A stretch of DNA of 63,169 nt, filler included, from Parachlamydiales bacterium (lineage in GTDB: Bacteria > Chlamydiota > Chlamydiia > Chlamydiales > Parachlamydiaceae), in assembly GCA_020051075.1 (NCBI GenBank). It is 3 parts of 3 records of this genome, joined end to end, with 100 filler letters (N's around TTAATTAATTAA, not from the genome) between each part and the next. Parts side by side here need not be neighbours in the genome. Positions count along the whole stretch, not along the records: positions 1 to 24,385 come from JAGVJP010000051.1; 2 more parts are not named here. One strand, written 5' to 3'. Under the pieces are notes generated by a model, which made no database searches, was not told where the DNA came from, and saw only the letters and a list, made by a program, of their open reading frames with translations. How positions within the stretch are numbered: position 1 is the first letter of the stretch; every line of letters starts with the position of its first letter. Both the position numbers and the translations under genes were made by a program. This document shows, piece after piece, positions 93 through 7,033 of this stretch.

Positions 93-1208
93 CTATGGAG
101 CCAAGCGAACAGCGTTGAGGTAGGCAGAGATTCCTGTCGAGCCTGTAGCACCCGCATTAGTAGGAGGATTTAAGAAGAACAAATCTCCGCTCGTATTATT
201 TAACGAAACAGCATAGCCAACACTTGTCACAGGAAGAAGAAAAGTTTTAGAATTCAACTCATTTATGCTAAAATTCGTTCGAAAGACTGTTAAAGCTGAT
301 CCATCTAATTCGCTTCCAACTAGGATGTTGCTTGAACCGTCAACAAGAGAGAGTTGATTTGACTCACCTTTAGAAAGTGAACCAATCGAAACCACACTGC
401 ATTTTCCGTAGACGAGAAGATAAGTCCCTGTCACTGAAAATACCAGCTGGCCTGTTCCTGGGCTATAGGTAATCCCAGAGGCTGAGGTGGCAACCGTGTT
501 AAAATGAATCGGCTGATTATTGAGTAATGTCAAGTCTGATAGTACGCTTGGGATAAGTTGCAACGATGCCCAAGGATCGGTGAAATTAATGAATTGTTGA
601 CTCCCTCCGGGTGTGCCGGTTGGTCCTGTATTTCCAGTGGCACCTGTGATCCCTGTTGGACCAATAGCTCCCGTGTTTCCGGTGTTACCGATAGCGCCAG
701 TGGGGCTTATTCCCGTAGGACCAGTCACGCCCGTAGCGCCTGTAACCCCAATCGCACCGGGGGTGCCTGTATCACCGACAGCACCGGTTTGACCTGTGTT
801 GCCATCAGCTCCATCCAACCCCGTTGCTCCTGTATTGCCAATGGCGCCAACCGCGCCCATTGCCCCCGTCGGGCCTGTAGGGCCTATTTCTGCACCGGTT
901 GCTCCGATAGGGCCAGTCGGCCCCCCTGTGCCGGTATTACCCAAAGGCCCGGTGTTGCCTTGCGTACCTATCGTTCCTGGAATAGAAGGTCCTATTGCTC
1001 CAGTGATACCCATCGGACCGCGATGCCCTCTGCGTCCTATACGCACTTTCTTTTTGTCTATGCGCTTTTTTCTTTGCACCTGATTTTGTTCCAAAGAGTG
1101 GGGGATATTGATGTCACTAATTGGGAAATTCGTTTGGGAGTCAGCAGGGGCTGTGAGAGTGATAAGAATGGCAAGAAGAGAGAGAGTTCTCATGATTTTT
1201 GAATTCAT
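93..1208 (-). CDS. Secreted collagen-like protein, chain type A, copy 1, with C-terminal C1q/BclA-like domain
   Basis: Signal-like N-terminus; [18 protein letters not shown] then ~47 Gly-X-Y triplets; beta-rich C-domain ([15 protein letters not shown]). Start set at the ATG overlapping the upstream TGA (alternative 1193). Confidence 0.9.
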
Positions 1209-2281
1209 TTGTCGCCTATGAGAATGAGGGTTAGATATGCCGTTACGTCGGTGCCAGCTGAAGGTCCTGTCGCACTCGGATTTGTAATAAAGCATCCGAG
1301 TTGCAGGTCAGTCCCATCTGAGGTGATATTTGTGAGCGAGACCTTATCGTTAGCTGAAAATTGAGAGATGATGCACTGTTGTCCTAACGACAGATTATCA
1401 GCAATCACAGTTTCACTTTCTGGGACAATAGTGACGCCATTCTTCTGTACGGCTAAGCGAATGCCATCGGGAGCTTGACCTGCGCCTGTTAAAGAACATC
1501 CGTAAGACAAAAAATAATTTCCATCAAAAGGGATGGTGACGAAAGTGGCTCCAGGAAGTCCAGCGGTAGAAAAATTGAGGGCGGTAGAAGAACTCATGAA
1601 GGGAATGGAAAAACTTAGAGGAACGACATTACCTCCCGAAATCTGGTTGGCCTGGGTGTATACATAAATATAAGCTTGATTAAGGCCTATCGCCGTTCCT
1701 CCAGGTGCTCCAATTGCCCCAGTGGCTCCAGTATTGCCATTCGGTCCATTAGCCCCAGTGCTTCCTGTCGGTCCGGTTGCTCCAGTGTTTCCTGTTGGTC
1801 CAGCGGTACCAATCGCTCCTATATTGCCAGTCGCTCCAATGGGTCCTGTTTGTCCTATGGCACCCTGCGCACCAGTATCGCCCGTTGCTCCTATTGCCCC
1901 GACTGCTCCTGCTGGACCAGTGTCTCCTATTGCTCCTGTTACTCCGGTGTTTCCTGTAGCTCCTTGTTGGCCTGAAAGGCTGCCGGGTGCATCAGCGCCC
2001 GCTGGGCCCGTGGGCCCTGTGAGGCCAATCGCTCCAGTCTTTCCTTGATTGCCAGTAGTGCCTTTGGCACCAGCCAGTCCTATTGTCGCTGGACCTTGAG
2101 GCCCTTGAGGTCCTTGCGGTCCTCGCTGCCCCCTTGGCCCTCGTCTAGTGTGATCCAGTCGATGGCTCTCGATAGAGCGTAAAGTTGCTTGGTTAGAATA
2201 TTCTTCTAGCTTGTCGTTATCGATAGAGTAAATCTGTAACGGAGCCGTGATCAGTAAGGATAATAGGAGATTTCTAAACAC
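1205..2281 (-). CDS. Secreted collagen-like protein, chain type B, copy 1
   Basis: GTG start with GAGGT RBS, matching the paralog start [25 protein letters not shown]; ~48 triplets; C1q/BclA-like domain ([22 protein letters not shown]). Confidence 0.9.
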
Positions 2282-2291
2282 TAATACCTCT

Positions 2292-3341
2292 CTAAGGTGT
2301 GATTTGCATGATAGTAAGGTAGCCATAAGTGTATCCATTGACTGTATCTGGAGCAAAATCAATGGTAGTTGATGGAGAGGTCACGTTGACTAAGGTCAGT
2401 GCGTCGGAAGCACTCAACAACAGAATAGCAGATCCTGTTGGCATGACAGCAGGATAGATGGAATTTATGATCGTGTTGTTCAGTACAGTGGCGTTTTGTT
2501 GAAGGGCAAAGCTTATTGTCCCGTCGCCAAATCCGATCAGACCATAGTTGATGAGATACATTCCAGTCACTGGGATTGTGATTGTTGGTCCAGGAGGTGT
2601 GTAAGTAAAGGCCGATTGCGCGTCGACAGTCTCAAAGGGAAAGGCAGCTCCAGGCCCTACGCTTGTGACTCCTGTAGAAGTAGAAACGGATAGGAAGACT
2701 CCCATCGCAGCTCCTGTCGCGCCGGTTGGTCCGGTGTTCCCAATCGCTCCGGTGTCGCCTATTGCTCCTGTATCGCCAAGTGGACCCGTTGATCCTGTTA
2801 ACCCTGTTGCCCCCGTTGATCCAGTCTCACCAATGGCGCCAGTGTCTCCTGTTGCACCTGTTGGTCCTATCACACCATTGGTCCCAGGGTCACCAATCAC
2901 CCCTGTGGATCCAATGCTGCCTGGTAAGCCTGCGTTGCCAACAGCGCCAGTGCCGCCAGTGAGTCCGTTTGGTCCTGTCGGACCAGTGGGTCCAGCGGCG
3001 CCTGGACCTATTGCAGCAGCGCCGGTGGCGCCGATAGATCCTATTGGGCCAGTGGGTCCTGTTAGACCTGTCGGGCCTTGGGGACCGGTATTTCCTCGAG
3101 GGGCCGTGGGGCCGGCAGGGCCTTGCGCTCCCGCAGGTCCTACGCGGCCTATTGGGCCGCGGCAGCATGTCTTCTTTCTTGCAGTTTCTAGAGATAAGGT
3201 GGGGATGGAGAACGGCTGCCATTCGCGAAGGGAGTGATTGAAACGACGATAAGGGACCTGTTGTTTTTCCTGTTCGCCAGAGTGGCAGTCAAGAAAAGGG
3301 AATAGCATTGATATCAGAAGGAGGATAGGCTTTGAAGTCAT
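2292..3341 (-). CDS. Secreted collagen-like protein, chain type C, copy 1
   Basis: MTSKPILLL signal; CCRGP; ~49 triplets; C1q/BclA-like domain ([22 protein letters not shown]). Confidence 0.9.
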
Positions 3342-3394
3342 ATTTATCAAATCATCGTAGAAGGGTAAAGGTAAAAGTAAAAAATTTAAGGGGA

Positions 3395-5809: not shown

Positions 5810-5844
5810 TCAAACCTATTTAAATTTTATTGACCGTCAATTTT

Positions 5845-6942
5845 CTAATTTTTTAGCATCATGATTGTGATATAACCCCAATTATATGAAGGAAATCCTG
5901 GTATTTGCGAAGAAAATATCATTGGTTGTGGAGGGTTGTTATAATTAATAAGCGTGAGTTGGTCATTAAAAAGGAAATCTTGGATAAGAGAGCCCGTTGG
6001 CATTGTAGTGATGGTTAGGTAGCCTACAGAAGAATTAAGGATAGTGGAGCCGTTCCGAGAGAGGGCTATACCACTTGCATCGTTAGTTTCACCTTGGCCT
6101 ATAAGACCATAATTGATGAAGTAAATCCCTGTAGCTGGGATGATTATCGTGGTTCCGCCGGAGAAAGTAAAGTTCGACTGAGCGCTGATGGTTGTGAAGG
6201 GAAATGCGGCGAATGCGTTTATTGACATATCGGTTGCTCCAGCAGGGGTATATGCAGACAGGAAGGTTGCTTTACTCTGCCCTGCGGCCCCTGTCGGTCC
6301 TGTAACTCCTATTGGTCCCGTGATCGTCCCTGTTGCTCCCGTTGAACCTGTTAGTCCTGTGTTGCCCGTCATTCCAGTCGCGCCTGTGGCTCCTATTTGA
6401 CCTGCTGCCCCGGTATCTCCTTTTGCTCCAGTATTTCCTATTGCGCCTGTTTGTCCTGTTGCGCCTGTTTGTCCATTGGGGCCAGGATCTCCTGTATTAC
6501 CCCGAGGCCCTTGTGCTCCCGTGTCTCCCGTTGCGCCTATTGGTCCATTGTTGCCAGTTGATCCTTGGGCTCCGGTGTTGCCTATTGCGCCGGTATTACC
6601 GGCTGCTCCTGGTAACCCTGGACCGATTGCATTAGGGCCGACGGGGCCGATCGGTCCGGTAGGGCCAGTGGGTCCTGTTAGACCGGCTGCTCCTTCAGGA
6701 CCGGTCGGCCCTCTTGGCCCTGTAGGGCCTGTTGGACCTGTCGGTCCGACTGGGCCTATGCGTCCAGTTGGGCCGCGGCAGCATTGCTTACTTCTTGCTA
6801 AGGGGAAAGAGGAGGCTATCCATTCATTAGTCGTGTTGTTCAGGTGAAGATAGGGGGGATGGTCGTTTTCTAATGTGTCAGAGTTGCAGTTCACAAGAGG
6901 GAATAGCATTGATAGAAGAAGGATAATGGGTTTCGAAGTCAT
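5845..6942 (-). CDS. Secreted collagen-like protein, chain type C, copy 2
   Basis: MTSKPIILL signal; CCRGP; INYGLIG and MPTGS motifs shared with 2292-3341; ~54 triplets. Confidence 0.9.
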
Positions 6943-6988
6943 ATTGATCAAATCATCGTACAAGGGTAGAAGTAAAAAAATCAGGGCA

Positions 6989-7033
6989 ATACTAACGGAT
7001 CAGGTAGGGATCTTCAACAATTATTTTGATTTT
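6989..7033 (-). promoter_or_regulatory. Sigma66/70-type promoter of collagen cassette 2
   Basis: TTGAAG (7012-7017), 17 bp, TAGTAT (6989-6994); paralogous to 3395-3439. Confidence 0.55.

What the first reader, a model, noticed from the sequence alone, without database searches (positions are those of the whole stretch)
93..7033. Duplicated three-chain collagen cassette: candidate bacterial C1q-like heterotrimeric collagen
Seen: the six collagen genes fall into three chain types, in transcription order C2-B2-A2 then C1-B1-A1. Each type has its own N-terminal motif ([42 protein letters not shown]) and its own C-domain motifs. Each cassette carries a copy of the same promoter. Architecture is signal peptide, short N-region, ~50 Gly-X-Y, then a C1q/BclA-like head. 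Known: the well-studied bacterial collagens (Scl1/2, BclA) are homotrimers, whereas animal C1q is an A/B/C heterotrimer from three tandem genes. Inference: each cassette encodes one ABC heterotrimer.
Basis: partly seen in the sequence, partly recalled or inferred. Interest (0 to 1): 0.92.

Follow-up and report, generated by a model that had tools for sequence, protein, structure and literature searches.

The report
Duplicated three-gene bacterial collagen cassette
A chlamydia-like bacterium carries repeated three-gene operons for collagen-like fibres with BclA/C1q-type heads, and the three chains of each operon have matching stalk lengths, which suggests but does not prove that bacteria can build mixed three-chain collagens as animals do.

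Summary
Six intact collagen-like genes on the minus strand (93-6942) form two cassettes, C2-B2-A2 and C1-B1-A1. The three chain types are old paralogues: each is one clade (support 100/99, 93/93, 98/97). Each cassette follows a copy of a 63-nt upstream element found only twice in the genome. The B2 head model folds like BclA, then C1q.

The heterotrimer reading is supported by circumstantial evidence only. Collagen lengths match within cassettes (146/149/151; 162/161/167). The same genome has two further three-gene cassettes of another head subfamily (87/84/87; 66/66/66). Genes within a cassette are tightly packed or overlap. An A2+B2+C2 head trimer is predicted with score 0.88 against 0.08 for the best control, but this cannot separate hetero- from homotrimers.

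Their function is still unknown.

No comparable match was found in the 401 genomes of the phylum sampled; orthologues appear only as rare metagenome proteins. Earlier notes of this scan describe similar length-matched triplets on other DNA.

Verdict: new variant of a known kind; heterotrimer about 0.55.

The parts
5845..6942 (-). C2: first gene of cassette 2. Signal peptide ending in Cys, CC just before the helix, 167-aa collagen domain (16|+4|33|+1|5 triplets), 142-aa head.
4610..5809 (-). B2: second gene of cassette 2. [17 protein letters not shown] motif, 161-aa collagen domain, 166-aa head. The head model (pLDDT 85) is nearest to BclA, then to C1q domains.
3447..4589 (-). A2: third gene of cassette 2. 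[18 protein letters not shown] motif, 162-aa collagen domain with an internal 99-nt tandem duplication (3976-4074 / 4075-4173, 86%), 165-aa head.
   Evidence: (family D4)
2292..3341 (-). C1: first gene of cassette 1. CC motif, 151-aa collagen domain, 137-aa head.
1205..2281 (-). B1: second gene of cassette 1. GTG start 10 nt after the C1 stop, preceded by GAGAGG. 149-aa collagen domain, 162-aa head.
93..1208 (-). A1: third gene of cassette 1. Its ATG overlaps the B1 stop (ATGA). 146-aa collagen domain, 168-aa head. The contig ends 92 nt after its stop.
6974..7036 (-). Upstream element of cassette 2, holding TTGAAG-17 nt-TAGTAT; candidate promoter.
   Evidence: (D10); below the threshold of the scan
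3380..3442 (-). Upstream element of cassette 1, holding TTGAAG-17 nt-TAATAT. It starts just after the A2 stop. No terminator-like site was found between A2 and C1.
   Evidence: (D10)
7068..7158 (-). tRNA-Ser(GGA), directly upstream of the cluster. The dnaB-tRNA-Ser pairing is kept in two same-family genomes that have no collagen cluster there.

Best explanation
Each cassette is a compact operon in the order C, B, A, preceded by a conserved upstream element. It makes three different Sec-exported collagen-like chains.

Inferred mechanism:
1. The three BclA/C1q-type jelly-roll heads associate as one A, one B and one C.
2. As in BclA and C1q-family collagens, the heads nucleate a triple helix that zips towards the N-terminus.
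3. Because the three collagen domains have the same length, the chain-specific N-terminal motifs end up side by side: the basic [18 protein letters not shown] of [11 protein letters not shown] of B and the Cys-Cys of C. There they would anchor or cross-link the fibre.

The products would be Thr-rich stalks with asymmetric three-faced heads. Taking 0.286 nm rise per residue (a recalled figure), the stalks are about 42 nm (cassette 1) and 47 nm (cassette 2). Most likely they are surface fibres or adhesins of an intracellular, chlamydia-like bacterium.

Shown here: gene structure, three paralogue types, head fold, length matching, tight packing.
Inferred: heterotrimer stoichiometry, export to the surface, function.
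For: 1. One of each type, in the same order, in both cassettes. A, B and C heads are each one clade with 14 relatives from other assemblies. The A1/A2 and B1/B2 splits are older than the split from those relatives.

2. Collagen-domain lengths match within cassettes and differ between them: 146/149/151 and 162/161/167 here; 87/84/87 and 66/66/66 in two further three-gene cassettes of the same genome (contigs C88 and C114).
- Type-preserving shuffles give the observed summed range (15) in 1 of 144 arrangements; the next lowest is 36.
- With this genome's cassettes only, it is 1 of 16.
- A free shuffle of the 12 chains reaches it in 6 of 100,000.
- The 99-nt internal duplication in A2 alone shows at least one chain-specific length change.

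3. A 1,132-nt metagenome contig has a B gene with a 65-aa collagen domain, followed 20 nt later by the start of an A gene. That start is 69/71 identical to P0019, whose collagen domain is 66 aa.

4. Gaps within cassettes are -4 to 37 nt, including an ATGA overlap of the B1 stop and the A1 start.

5. The A2+B2+C2 heads, each with six triplets, are predicted as one trimer: score 0.88, best of 3 controls 0.08. That mark was reached by 116 of 157 solved complexes and 2 of 215 mismatched pairs. The runs agree in at least 88% of contacts, and the partner's pLDDT is at least 86. This shows likeness to solved BclA/C1q trimers and would probably also pass for homotrimers.

6. The three head types carry different, strongly conserved loops: [16 protein letters not shown] only in A, NPS[SA]TGPSAG only in B. 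This fits three specialised faces on one head.
Against: - There is no physical evidence.
- The solved BclA head is described as a homotrimer (PMC7743900, passage). [quoted passage not shown]
- Only one complex job was allowed, so ABC was not compared with AAA, BBB or CCC.
- Only the C chain has Cys (CC) at the start of the helix. In an ABC trimer these two Cys have no partner inside the trimer. Three C chains could form a six-Cys knot, as I recall for collagen III.
- Equal stalk lengths could also be selected if three homotrimers had to reach one common layer.
- Breaks in the Gly-X-Y pattern are only roughly level between chains. In the short metagenome pair they are not level (A 6|+2|4|+1|11 against B 17|+2|4).
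- The listed contacts of the predicted interface are ordinary hydrophobic strand packing, with no chain-specific charge pairs.
- Collagen genes with BclA-like heads in 12 other genomes of the phylum are single (11 loci) or paired (2 loci). Single-chain fibres are therefore the norm in the group.
Confidence: 0.55

Rival explanations
1. Three homotrimers per cassette (A3, B3, C3) are made together and mounted side by side in one surface layer. Equal stalk length is selected so that the heads lie in one plane.
For: - BclA-type heads are described as homotrimers (PMC7743900 passage; PMC8968730 passage).
- The CC before the helix of C could form a homotrimer knot (recalled from collagen III).
- Each chain has its own conserved N-terminal motif, which could be its own anchor.
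- Break positions are not strictly level between chains.
- Single-gene relatives are common in the phylum.
Against: This does not explain why exactly one of each type is kept in all four cassettes of this genome, nor the tight coupling, including an overlapping stop and start. Length matching to within 0-6 residues across a 66-167 range is tighter than a shared layer would seem to need.
Confidence: 0.3
2. The chains mix in other ways, for example A2B-type trimers, or heads that pair only at a higher level such as trimers of trimers. The cassette would then supply parts for a larger bouquet-like assembly.
For: The two Cys of the C chain have no partner inside an ABC trimer and could link trimers to each other or to the Cys-rich envelope. 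The genome has an OmcB-like protein. It also has collagen genes paired with Cys-rich porin-like genes.
Against: No evidence for any particular stoichiometry. Gene dosage is 1:1:1 in every cassette seen.
Confidence: 0.08
3. The six genes are redundant or alternative variants of one fibre, such as antigenic or host-range variants, with no co-assembly. The triplet pattern would be only a relic of duplication.
For: In Pasteuria ramosa, triplet collagen-like genes are diversity hot spots tied to host attachment (abstract and passages of bioRxiv 10.1101/2025.03.22.644704).
Against: The three types are old and each is conserved with its own motifs across several organisms. The lengths co-vary. The cassettes are only about 43-49% identical in their heads, with no sign of recent recombination.
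Confidence: 0.07

Closest known systems
Pasteuria ramosa collagen-like protein (PCL) gene triplets, groups 1-2-3 (McElroy et al. 2011, as cited in PMC13233619, bioRxiv 10.1101/2025.03.22.644704 and 10.1101/2024.02.09.579640, and PMC10329263; passages read)
   Same: [quoted passage not shown] Whole triplets have duplicated and diverged. Their nearest structural model is the BclA head (PMC7743900). What the triplet arrangement is for is stated to be unknown (PMC10329263).
   Different: Pasteuria is a spore-forming Bacillota parasite of Daphnia; this is a chlamydia-like intracellular bacterium. Homology between the A/B/C heads and PCL groups 1-3 was not tested, because no PCL sequence was at hand. 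Length matching within triplets and heterotrimer formation are not discussed in the passages I read. The head loops here are conserved rather than hypervariable.
BclA / F-BclA exosporium and endospore-appendage collagen-like glycoproteins of Bacillus (PDB 1wck, 9h38)
   Same: Layout of N-terminal anchor region, Thr-rich Gly-X-Y stalk and C-terminal jelly-roll head. These are the top Foldseek matches of the B2 head model (E 2e-8 to 3e-7, TM by target 0.78-0.84).
   Different: BclA is a single gene whose head is described as a homotrimer. The Pfam BclA_C score of the six heads stays under the cut-off (best 29.5 against 38 bits). The organism is a diderm, non-sporulating host-dependent bacterium with Sec signal peptides.
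Animal C1q (A, B and C chains from three clustered genes) and other C1q-domain collagens
   Same: Three paralogous chains, each with a short N-region, collagen stalk and jelly-roll head, encoded side by side. There is a break in the Gly-X-Y pattern part-way along the stalk, and Cys near the N-terminal end of the helix. C1q-domain structures are the next-best fold matches (E 2e-6 to 4e-5, TM by target about 0.65-0.74).
   Different: Pfam C1q is not met (A1 14.1 bits against 23.7). The heads are nearer to BclA than to C1q. Here only one chain type carries the N-terminal Cys pair. Heterotrimer formation is proven for C1q (established knowledge) but not here. The likeness is most simply convergent.
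Streptococcal Scl1/Scl2 and Legionella Lcl collagen-like adhesins
   Same: Bacterial collagen-like repeat proteins. The NCBIfam models hit the repeat region.
   Different: Scores are far under the cut-offs (best 93 against 325 bits). Here the globular domain is C-terminal, and NCBIfam describes Scl1/Scl2 as LPXTG-anchored. These are not members.

Membership tests
Collagen triple-helix repeat proteins (Pfam PF01391) | Gly-X-Y repeats scoring above the curated cut-off | tested here: met
   6 of 6 proteins score 57.5-81.2 bits against a cut-off of 27.2. Each has 47-54 triplets.
BclA C-terminal domain (Pfam PF18573) | Sequence score above the curated cut-off of 38 bits | tested here: not met
   B2 scores 29.5 bits and C1 20.3 bits. 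The other four heads have no BclA_C hit at E up to 1.
BclA C-terminal domain (fold level) | Jelly-roll head with the BclA fold | tested here: met
   B2 head model: pLDDT 85.2, pTM 0.83. The top 12 Foldseek PDB matches are all F-BclA or BclA entries, E 2e-8 to 4e-7. Only the B2 head was modelled on its own.
C1q domain (Pfam PF00386) | Sequence score above the curated cut-off of 23.7 bits | tested here: not met
   Only A1 hits, at 14.1 bits, E 0.056. At fold level, C1q domains follow BclA at E 2e-6 to 4e-5.
C1q-like heterotrimeric collagen | One A, one B and one C chain in the same triple helix | not testable with these tools
   Only indirect evidence: length matching, operon packing, and an ABC head prediction of 0.88 against 0.08 for the best control. 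That prediction cannot separate hetero- from homotrimers.
Pasteuria-type collagen-like gene triplets | [quoted passage not shown] | tested here: met
   The order C-B-A holds in both window cassettes. X-Y-Z holds in the two cassettes on C88 and C114; Y and Z are each one clade, X is not resolved as one clade. B is followed by A on metagenome contig L001.
Pasteuria-type collagen-like gene triplets | Duplication of whole triplets | tested here: met
   Repeat spacing is 3,348-3,601 nt and includes the upstream element. A1/A2, B1/B2 and C1/C2 pair within their types.
Pasteuria-type collagen-like gene triplets | Sequence homology of the chains to PCL groups 1, 2 and 3 | not tested
The supplement of PMC13233619 holds none in the part read (part 1 of 7) or in its listed sheets.
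Scl1/Scl2 LPXTG collagen-like adhesins (NCBIfam NF038330, NF038329) | Score above the curated cut-off (400 / 325 bits) | tested here: not met
   The best score is 93.3 bits, and only the repeat region aligns.

The most novel reading that the evidence does not exclude
These cassettes encode natural, obligate ABC heterotrimeric collagens in a bacterium. Chain selection would be made by three diverged BclA-type heads, and fibre length would be set cassette by cassette (about 19, 25, 42 and 47 nm in this one genome). If so, three-chain collagens arose independently of animals, and the triplet gene pattern known from Pasteuria has a structural explanation.
Probability: 0.5. Interest if true: 0.8.

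Novelty: new variant of a known kind. Interest (0 to 1): 0.64.

Why it matters
[quoted passage not shown] A natural bacterial system that selects three different chains through small C-terminal heads would:
- explain why collagen-like genes come in fixed triplets, a question stated as open for Pasteuria (PMC10329263);
- be a second, independent origin of the C1q-like design;
- offer ready-made trimerisation domains for making defined heterotrimeric collagens.

The test is direct: co-express three small genes and look at the stoichiometry.

Tried and rejected
- Word-based search of 5.8 billion proteins with the B2 head found none of 520 candidates at E up to 0.001. With the A2 head it found only P0010 (one Logan contig of 2,321 nt) and the window's own A1.
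- The search for related loci with the A-type alignment found nothing in metagenome contigs, genome contigs or viral contigs.
- The B-type alignment gave one 1,132-nt metagenome contig and nothing in genome contigs. In viral contigs it gave 77 loci, nearly all matching the collagen repeat (mostly query residues about 70-235). These are generic collagen hits and were not followed.
- The C-type alignment was too poorly conserved for that tool.
- The listing of cluster members could not be run because the database was switched off. So the samples of relatives P0002-P0019 are unknown and they could not be paired into cassettes. Their collagen lengths are A 132, 146, 162, 66; B 133, 147, 149; C 136, 150, 166. 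They would pair up neatly, but that is only suggestive.
- Sequencing runs: none was listed, and no RNA holder was listed.
- The full-length B2 model had too low confidence to use (pLDDT 44.6).
- A look at the predicted contact residues for chain-specific charge or size pairs found only ordinary hydrophobic strand contacts.
- The supplement of PMC13233619 was opened for PCL lengths or sequences; part 1 of 7 and the list of its sheets showed none.
- Literature searches for collagen-like proteins in chlamydiae found nothing relevant: 'collagen-like' + 'Chlamydiae' + 'C1q' gave 0 papers; 'collagen-like' + 'Parachlamydia' gave 1, an unrelated water-pathogen review judged from its listing only; 'collagen-like' + 'chlamydia-like' + 'amoebae' gave 0.
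- The consensus promoter scan did not list the conserved TTGAAG/TA[GA]TAT pair.
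Full report
**What is there**

Window 93-6963 holds six intact ORFs on the minus strand. All six pass Pfam Collagen PF01391 (57-81 bits, cut-off 27.2). Each protein has:
- a hydrophobic N-terminal signal-like segment;
- a short N-region ending in a type-specific motif;
- 47-54 Gly-X-Y triplets, with Thr the commonest Y residue;
- a C-terminal domain of 137-168 residues.

From the junction sequences and from orthologues I place the starts at 6942 (C2), 5809 (B2), 4589 (A2), 3341 (C1), 2281 (B1) and 1208 (A1). 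B1 has a GTG start after GAGAGG. The A1 ATG overlaps the B1 stop as ATGA. Gaps inside a cassette run from -4 to 37 nt. The gap between the cassettes is about 105 nt.

**Three chain types, and a real duplication**

Heads of the same type share 70/162 (A), 77/156 (B) and 57/131 (C) identical residues. Local alignments between types are much weaker (scores 43-110 against 234-324). In a maximum-likelihood tree of 26 heads, A, B and C are each one clade (100/99, 93/93, 98/97). A1 groups with relative P0004 (80% identity), B1 with P0002 (81%), and A2 with P0010 and P0008. The cassette duplication is therefore older than the split from those other organisms.

The repeat analysis shows the duplicated unit to be the whole cassette, with spacing of 3,348-3,601 nt. 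It includes a 63-nt upstream element (3380-3442 and 6974-7036, 84% identical). The 48-nt core of that element occurs only at these two places in the genome at up to 10 mismatches. By eye it holds TTGAAG-17 nt-TA[GA]TAT. The consensus scan did not list this pair, and it found no terminator-like site between A2 and C1. Separate promoters are therefore plausible but not shown, and read-through across all six genes is possible.

**Head fold**

By sequence the heads stay below the curated cut-offs: BclA_C gives B2 29.5 and C1 20.3 bits against 38, and C1q gives A1 14.1 bits against 23.7. A model of the B2 head built with a 67-row alignment reached pLDDT 85.2 and pTM 0.83. Its best PDB matches are F-BclA (9h38) and BclA (1wck, 2r6q, 3twi), at E 2e-8 to 4e-7. 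C1q domains follow (Caprin-2, C1QL, cerebellin), at E 2e-6 to 4e-5. The Atlas search places the A2 head next to BclA_C and collagen clusters, mostly of Bacillota. 'BclA/C1q-like head' is thus right at fold level, and the heads are nearer to BclA.

**Genome and setting**

The window is three contigs joined by N. Positions 1-24385 are contig C29, and position 1 is the contig end, so the cluster may go on. The genome is 2.94 Mb in 133 contigs. It has three TLC nucleotide transporters and an OmcB-like protein that scores below the cut-off. The DnaB gene beside the cluster is 72-81% identical to DnaB of same-family genomes. The contig therefore belongs to a chlamydia-like intracellular bacterium.

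tRNA-Ser(GGA) lies at 7068-7158, directly upstream of C2. In the two same-family genomes I examined, dnaB also lies near tRNA-Ser(GGA), but no similarity to window 1-7000 is present there. The cluster therefore looks like a lineage-specific addition at the 3' side of that tRNA gene. The other neighbours are housekeeping genes.

**More triplets in the same genome**

A scan of the genome for Gly-X-Y ORFs found two further three-gene cassettes: contig C88 at 11639-15232 and contig C114 at 12227-15153.
- Their heads form a second subfamily, X, Y and Z. It separates from ABC at 100/99 in the tree, and the profile-profile match to ABC has 82% probability.
- Pfam gives Collagen for all six; five of the six also give a BclA_C hit below the cut-off.
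- As in C chains, the first gene of both cassettes has CC just before the helix (CCVRGP).

The genome also has other collagen-like genes:
- two collagen genes each paired with a porin-like gene (C31);
- a single collagen gene (C99);
- one gene split over two contig ends (C4 and C73);
- two head-only genes (C85).

**Length matching**

The collagen domain lengths in residues are:

| Cassette | Lengths |
|---|---|
| Cassette 1 (A/B/C) | 146 / 149 / 151 |
| Cassette 2 (A/B/C) | 162 / 161 / 167 |
| C88 (X/Y/Z) | 87 / 84 / 87 |
| C114 (X/Y/Z) | 66 / 66 / 66 |

A 1,132-nt metagenome contig (L001) carries a B gene with a 65-residue domain. Twenty nucleotides later an A gene starts. Its first 71 residues are 69/71 identical to P0019, whose domain is 66 residues. 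Using P0019 as a stand-in for that A gene is an inference.

The shuffles gave:
- keeping chain types fixed, 1 of 144 arrangements has a summed within-cassette range as low as observed (15; the next lowest is 36);
- with this genome's cassettes only, 1 of 16;
- a free shuffle of the 12 chains reached it in 6 of 100,000.

Cassettes 1 and 2 descend from one ancestral cassette, so all three chains of one cassette must have changed length by a similar amount. A2 alone shows a 99-nt internal tandem duplication. This points to separate length changes in each gene under a common constraint.

All six window chains also have a break in the Gly-X-Y pattern 48-52 residues from the start of the helix. In the short metagenome pair the breaks are not level.

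**Co-assembly test**

The A2, B2 and C2 heads, each with six triplets and given with their alignments, were predicted as one trimer. The score was 0.88 and the best of 3 controls was 0.08. That mark was reached by 116 of 157 solved complexes and 2 of 215 mismatched pairs. The runs agree in at least 88% of contacts, and the partner's pLDDT is at least 86.

BclA and C1q trimers have been solved, so this pass may be from memory. Paralogues would probably pass too, so it does not separate ABC from homotrimers. Only one job was allowed. The listed contacts are ordinary hydrophobic strand contacts.

**Distribution**

| Search | Genomes | Result |
|---|---|---|
| ABC head profile, relatives | 41 | nothing comparable; best outside the own genome E 4e-11 |
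| ABC head profile, genus | 1 (the own genome) | own genome only |
| ABC head profile, family | 73 | nothing comparable |
| ABC head profile, phylum | 401 | 2 at E up to 1e-12: the own genome, and G361 with one match at 1.5e-14 |
| XYZ head profile, phylum | 400 | 4 at E up to 1e-6: the own genome and three single weak hits |

These genomes are a sample, so this means 'not found in those searched'.

In 13 loci of 12 relatives that had weaker hits, genes with a BclA-like head (11 of the loci also with Gly-X-Y repeats) are single at 11 loci and paired at 2. None is a triplet.

The exhaustive search of 1.84 billion representatives gave 165 hits at E up to 0.001 and 21 at up to 1e-10. Among the best hits, apart from fragments of the window's own proteins, are 4 A-type, 5 B-type and 5 C-type proteins, each with the same N-terminal motifs. 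The three types thus occur in about equal numbers in rare, uncultured relatives.

**What is known**

The closest precedent is Pasteuria ramosa. [quoted passage not shown] Whole triplets have duplicated (passages of PMC13233619, bioRxiv 10.1101/2025.03.22.644704 and 10.1101/2024.02.09.579640). [quoted passage not shown] PMC7743900 models Pcl7 as a homotrimer on BclA and notes that heterotrimers are possible. [quoted passage not shown]

My three searches for collagen-like proteins in chlamydiae found nothing relevant.

Earlier notes of this scan report three-gene collagen cassettes with matching stalk lengths in another bacterium (e1-7657725) and in a phage (e1-5687256). I did not check those.

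**Verdict**

The most likely reading is one ABC trimer per cassette, at about 0.55. The main rival is three homotrimers mounted in one layer, at about 0.30.

The finding is a new variant of a known kind: Pasteuria-type triplets in an unrelated, chlamydia-like lineage with two head subfamilies. Length co-variation is a new argument for co-assembly. Whether the heads are homologous to Pasteuria's, and whether the fibres reach the cell surface, remain open.

Noticed in passing
G000 contig C88 11639-15232 (L010 2140-5733) and contig C114 12227-15153 (L011 2228-5154): Two further three-gene collagen cassettes of a second head subfamily (X-Y-Z). Collagen lengths are 87/84/87 and 66/66/66. The N-regions are very basic and Cys-rich (for example KHKKHKKHKKHKRKRCCVRG).
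   Followed up: partly
G000 contig C31 47386-51207 (L012): A duplicated pair: a collagen gene with a BclA-like head and a Cys-containing N-region, followed by a Cys-rich porin-like gene (Pfam Legionella_OMP 1.5e-32, weak Protochlamydia Pom). This may hint at disulfide anchoring of collagen fibres to the envelope.
   Followed up: partly
G000 contig C85 54887-56576 (L013): Two tandem genes with BclA_C-like heads but no collagen repeat. The 193-aa protein passes the Pfam cut-off (41.3 bits against 38).
   Followed up: partly
G000 contig C4 2-952 and contig C73 1-1359: Two contig ends hold what look like the 3' and 5' halves of one very long GNTGATG-type collagen gene. The assembly probably broke inside the repeat.
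   Followed up: no
window 5845-6942 and 2292-3341 (C chains), residue 19: C chains, and two of the three full-length C-type relatives, have a Cys at the end of the signal-like segment (PLVNC, PFLDC, PLFDC, PAVSC). This is a possible though atypical lipobox. If so, only the C chain might be lipid-anchored.
   Followed up: no
window 6950-6958 and 3348-3356 (minus strand): A three-codon mini-ORF (ATG ATT TGA) lies just upstream of the C start codon in both cassettes.
   Followed up: no
window 11015-11632 (+): A gene for a signal-peptide-bearing protein made of GGGH repeats followed by a Tyr/Asn/Pro-rich tail. No Pfam family.
   Followed up: no
window 3976-4173: A 99-nt tandem duplication (86% identical) inside the A2 collagen region, showing how stalk length changes in a single chain.
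   Followed up: partly
window 24386-24485 and 50962-51061: The window is three contigs (C29, C30, C37) joined by runs of N. Neighbourhood arguments hold only within 1-24385.
   Followed up: yes
A-type heads, e.g. window 3447-4589 residues about 298-314: An A-specific loop, [16 protein letters not shown], is nearly invariant across all six A-type proteins and lies in an insertion that B and C lack. B types have their own conserved NPS[SA]TGPSAG loop. These are candidate ligand-binding sites.
   Followed up: partly
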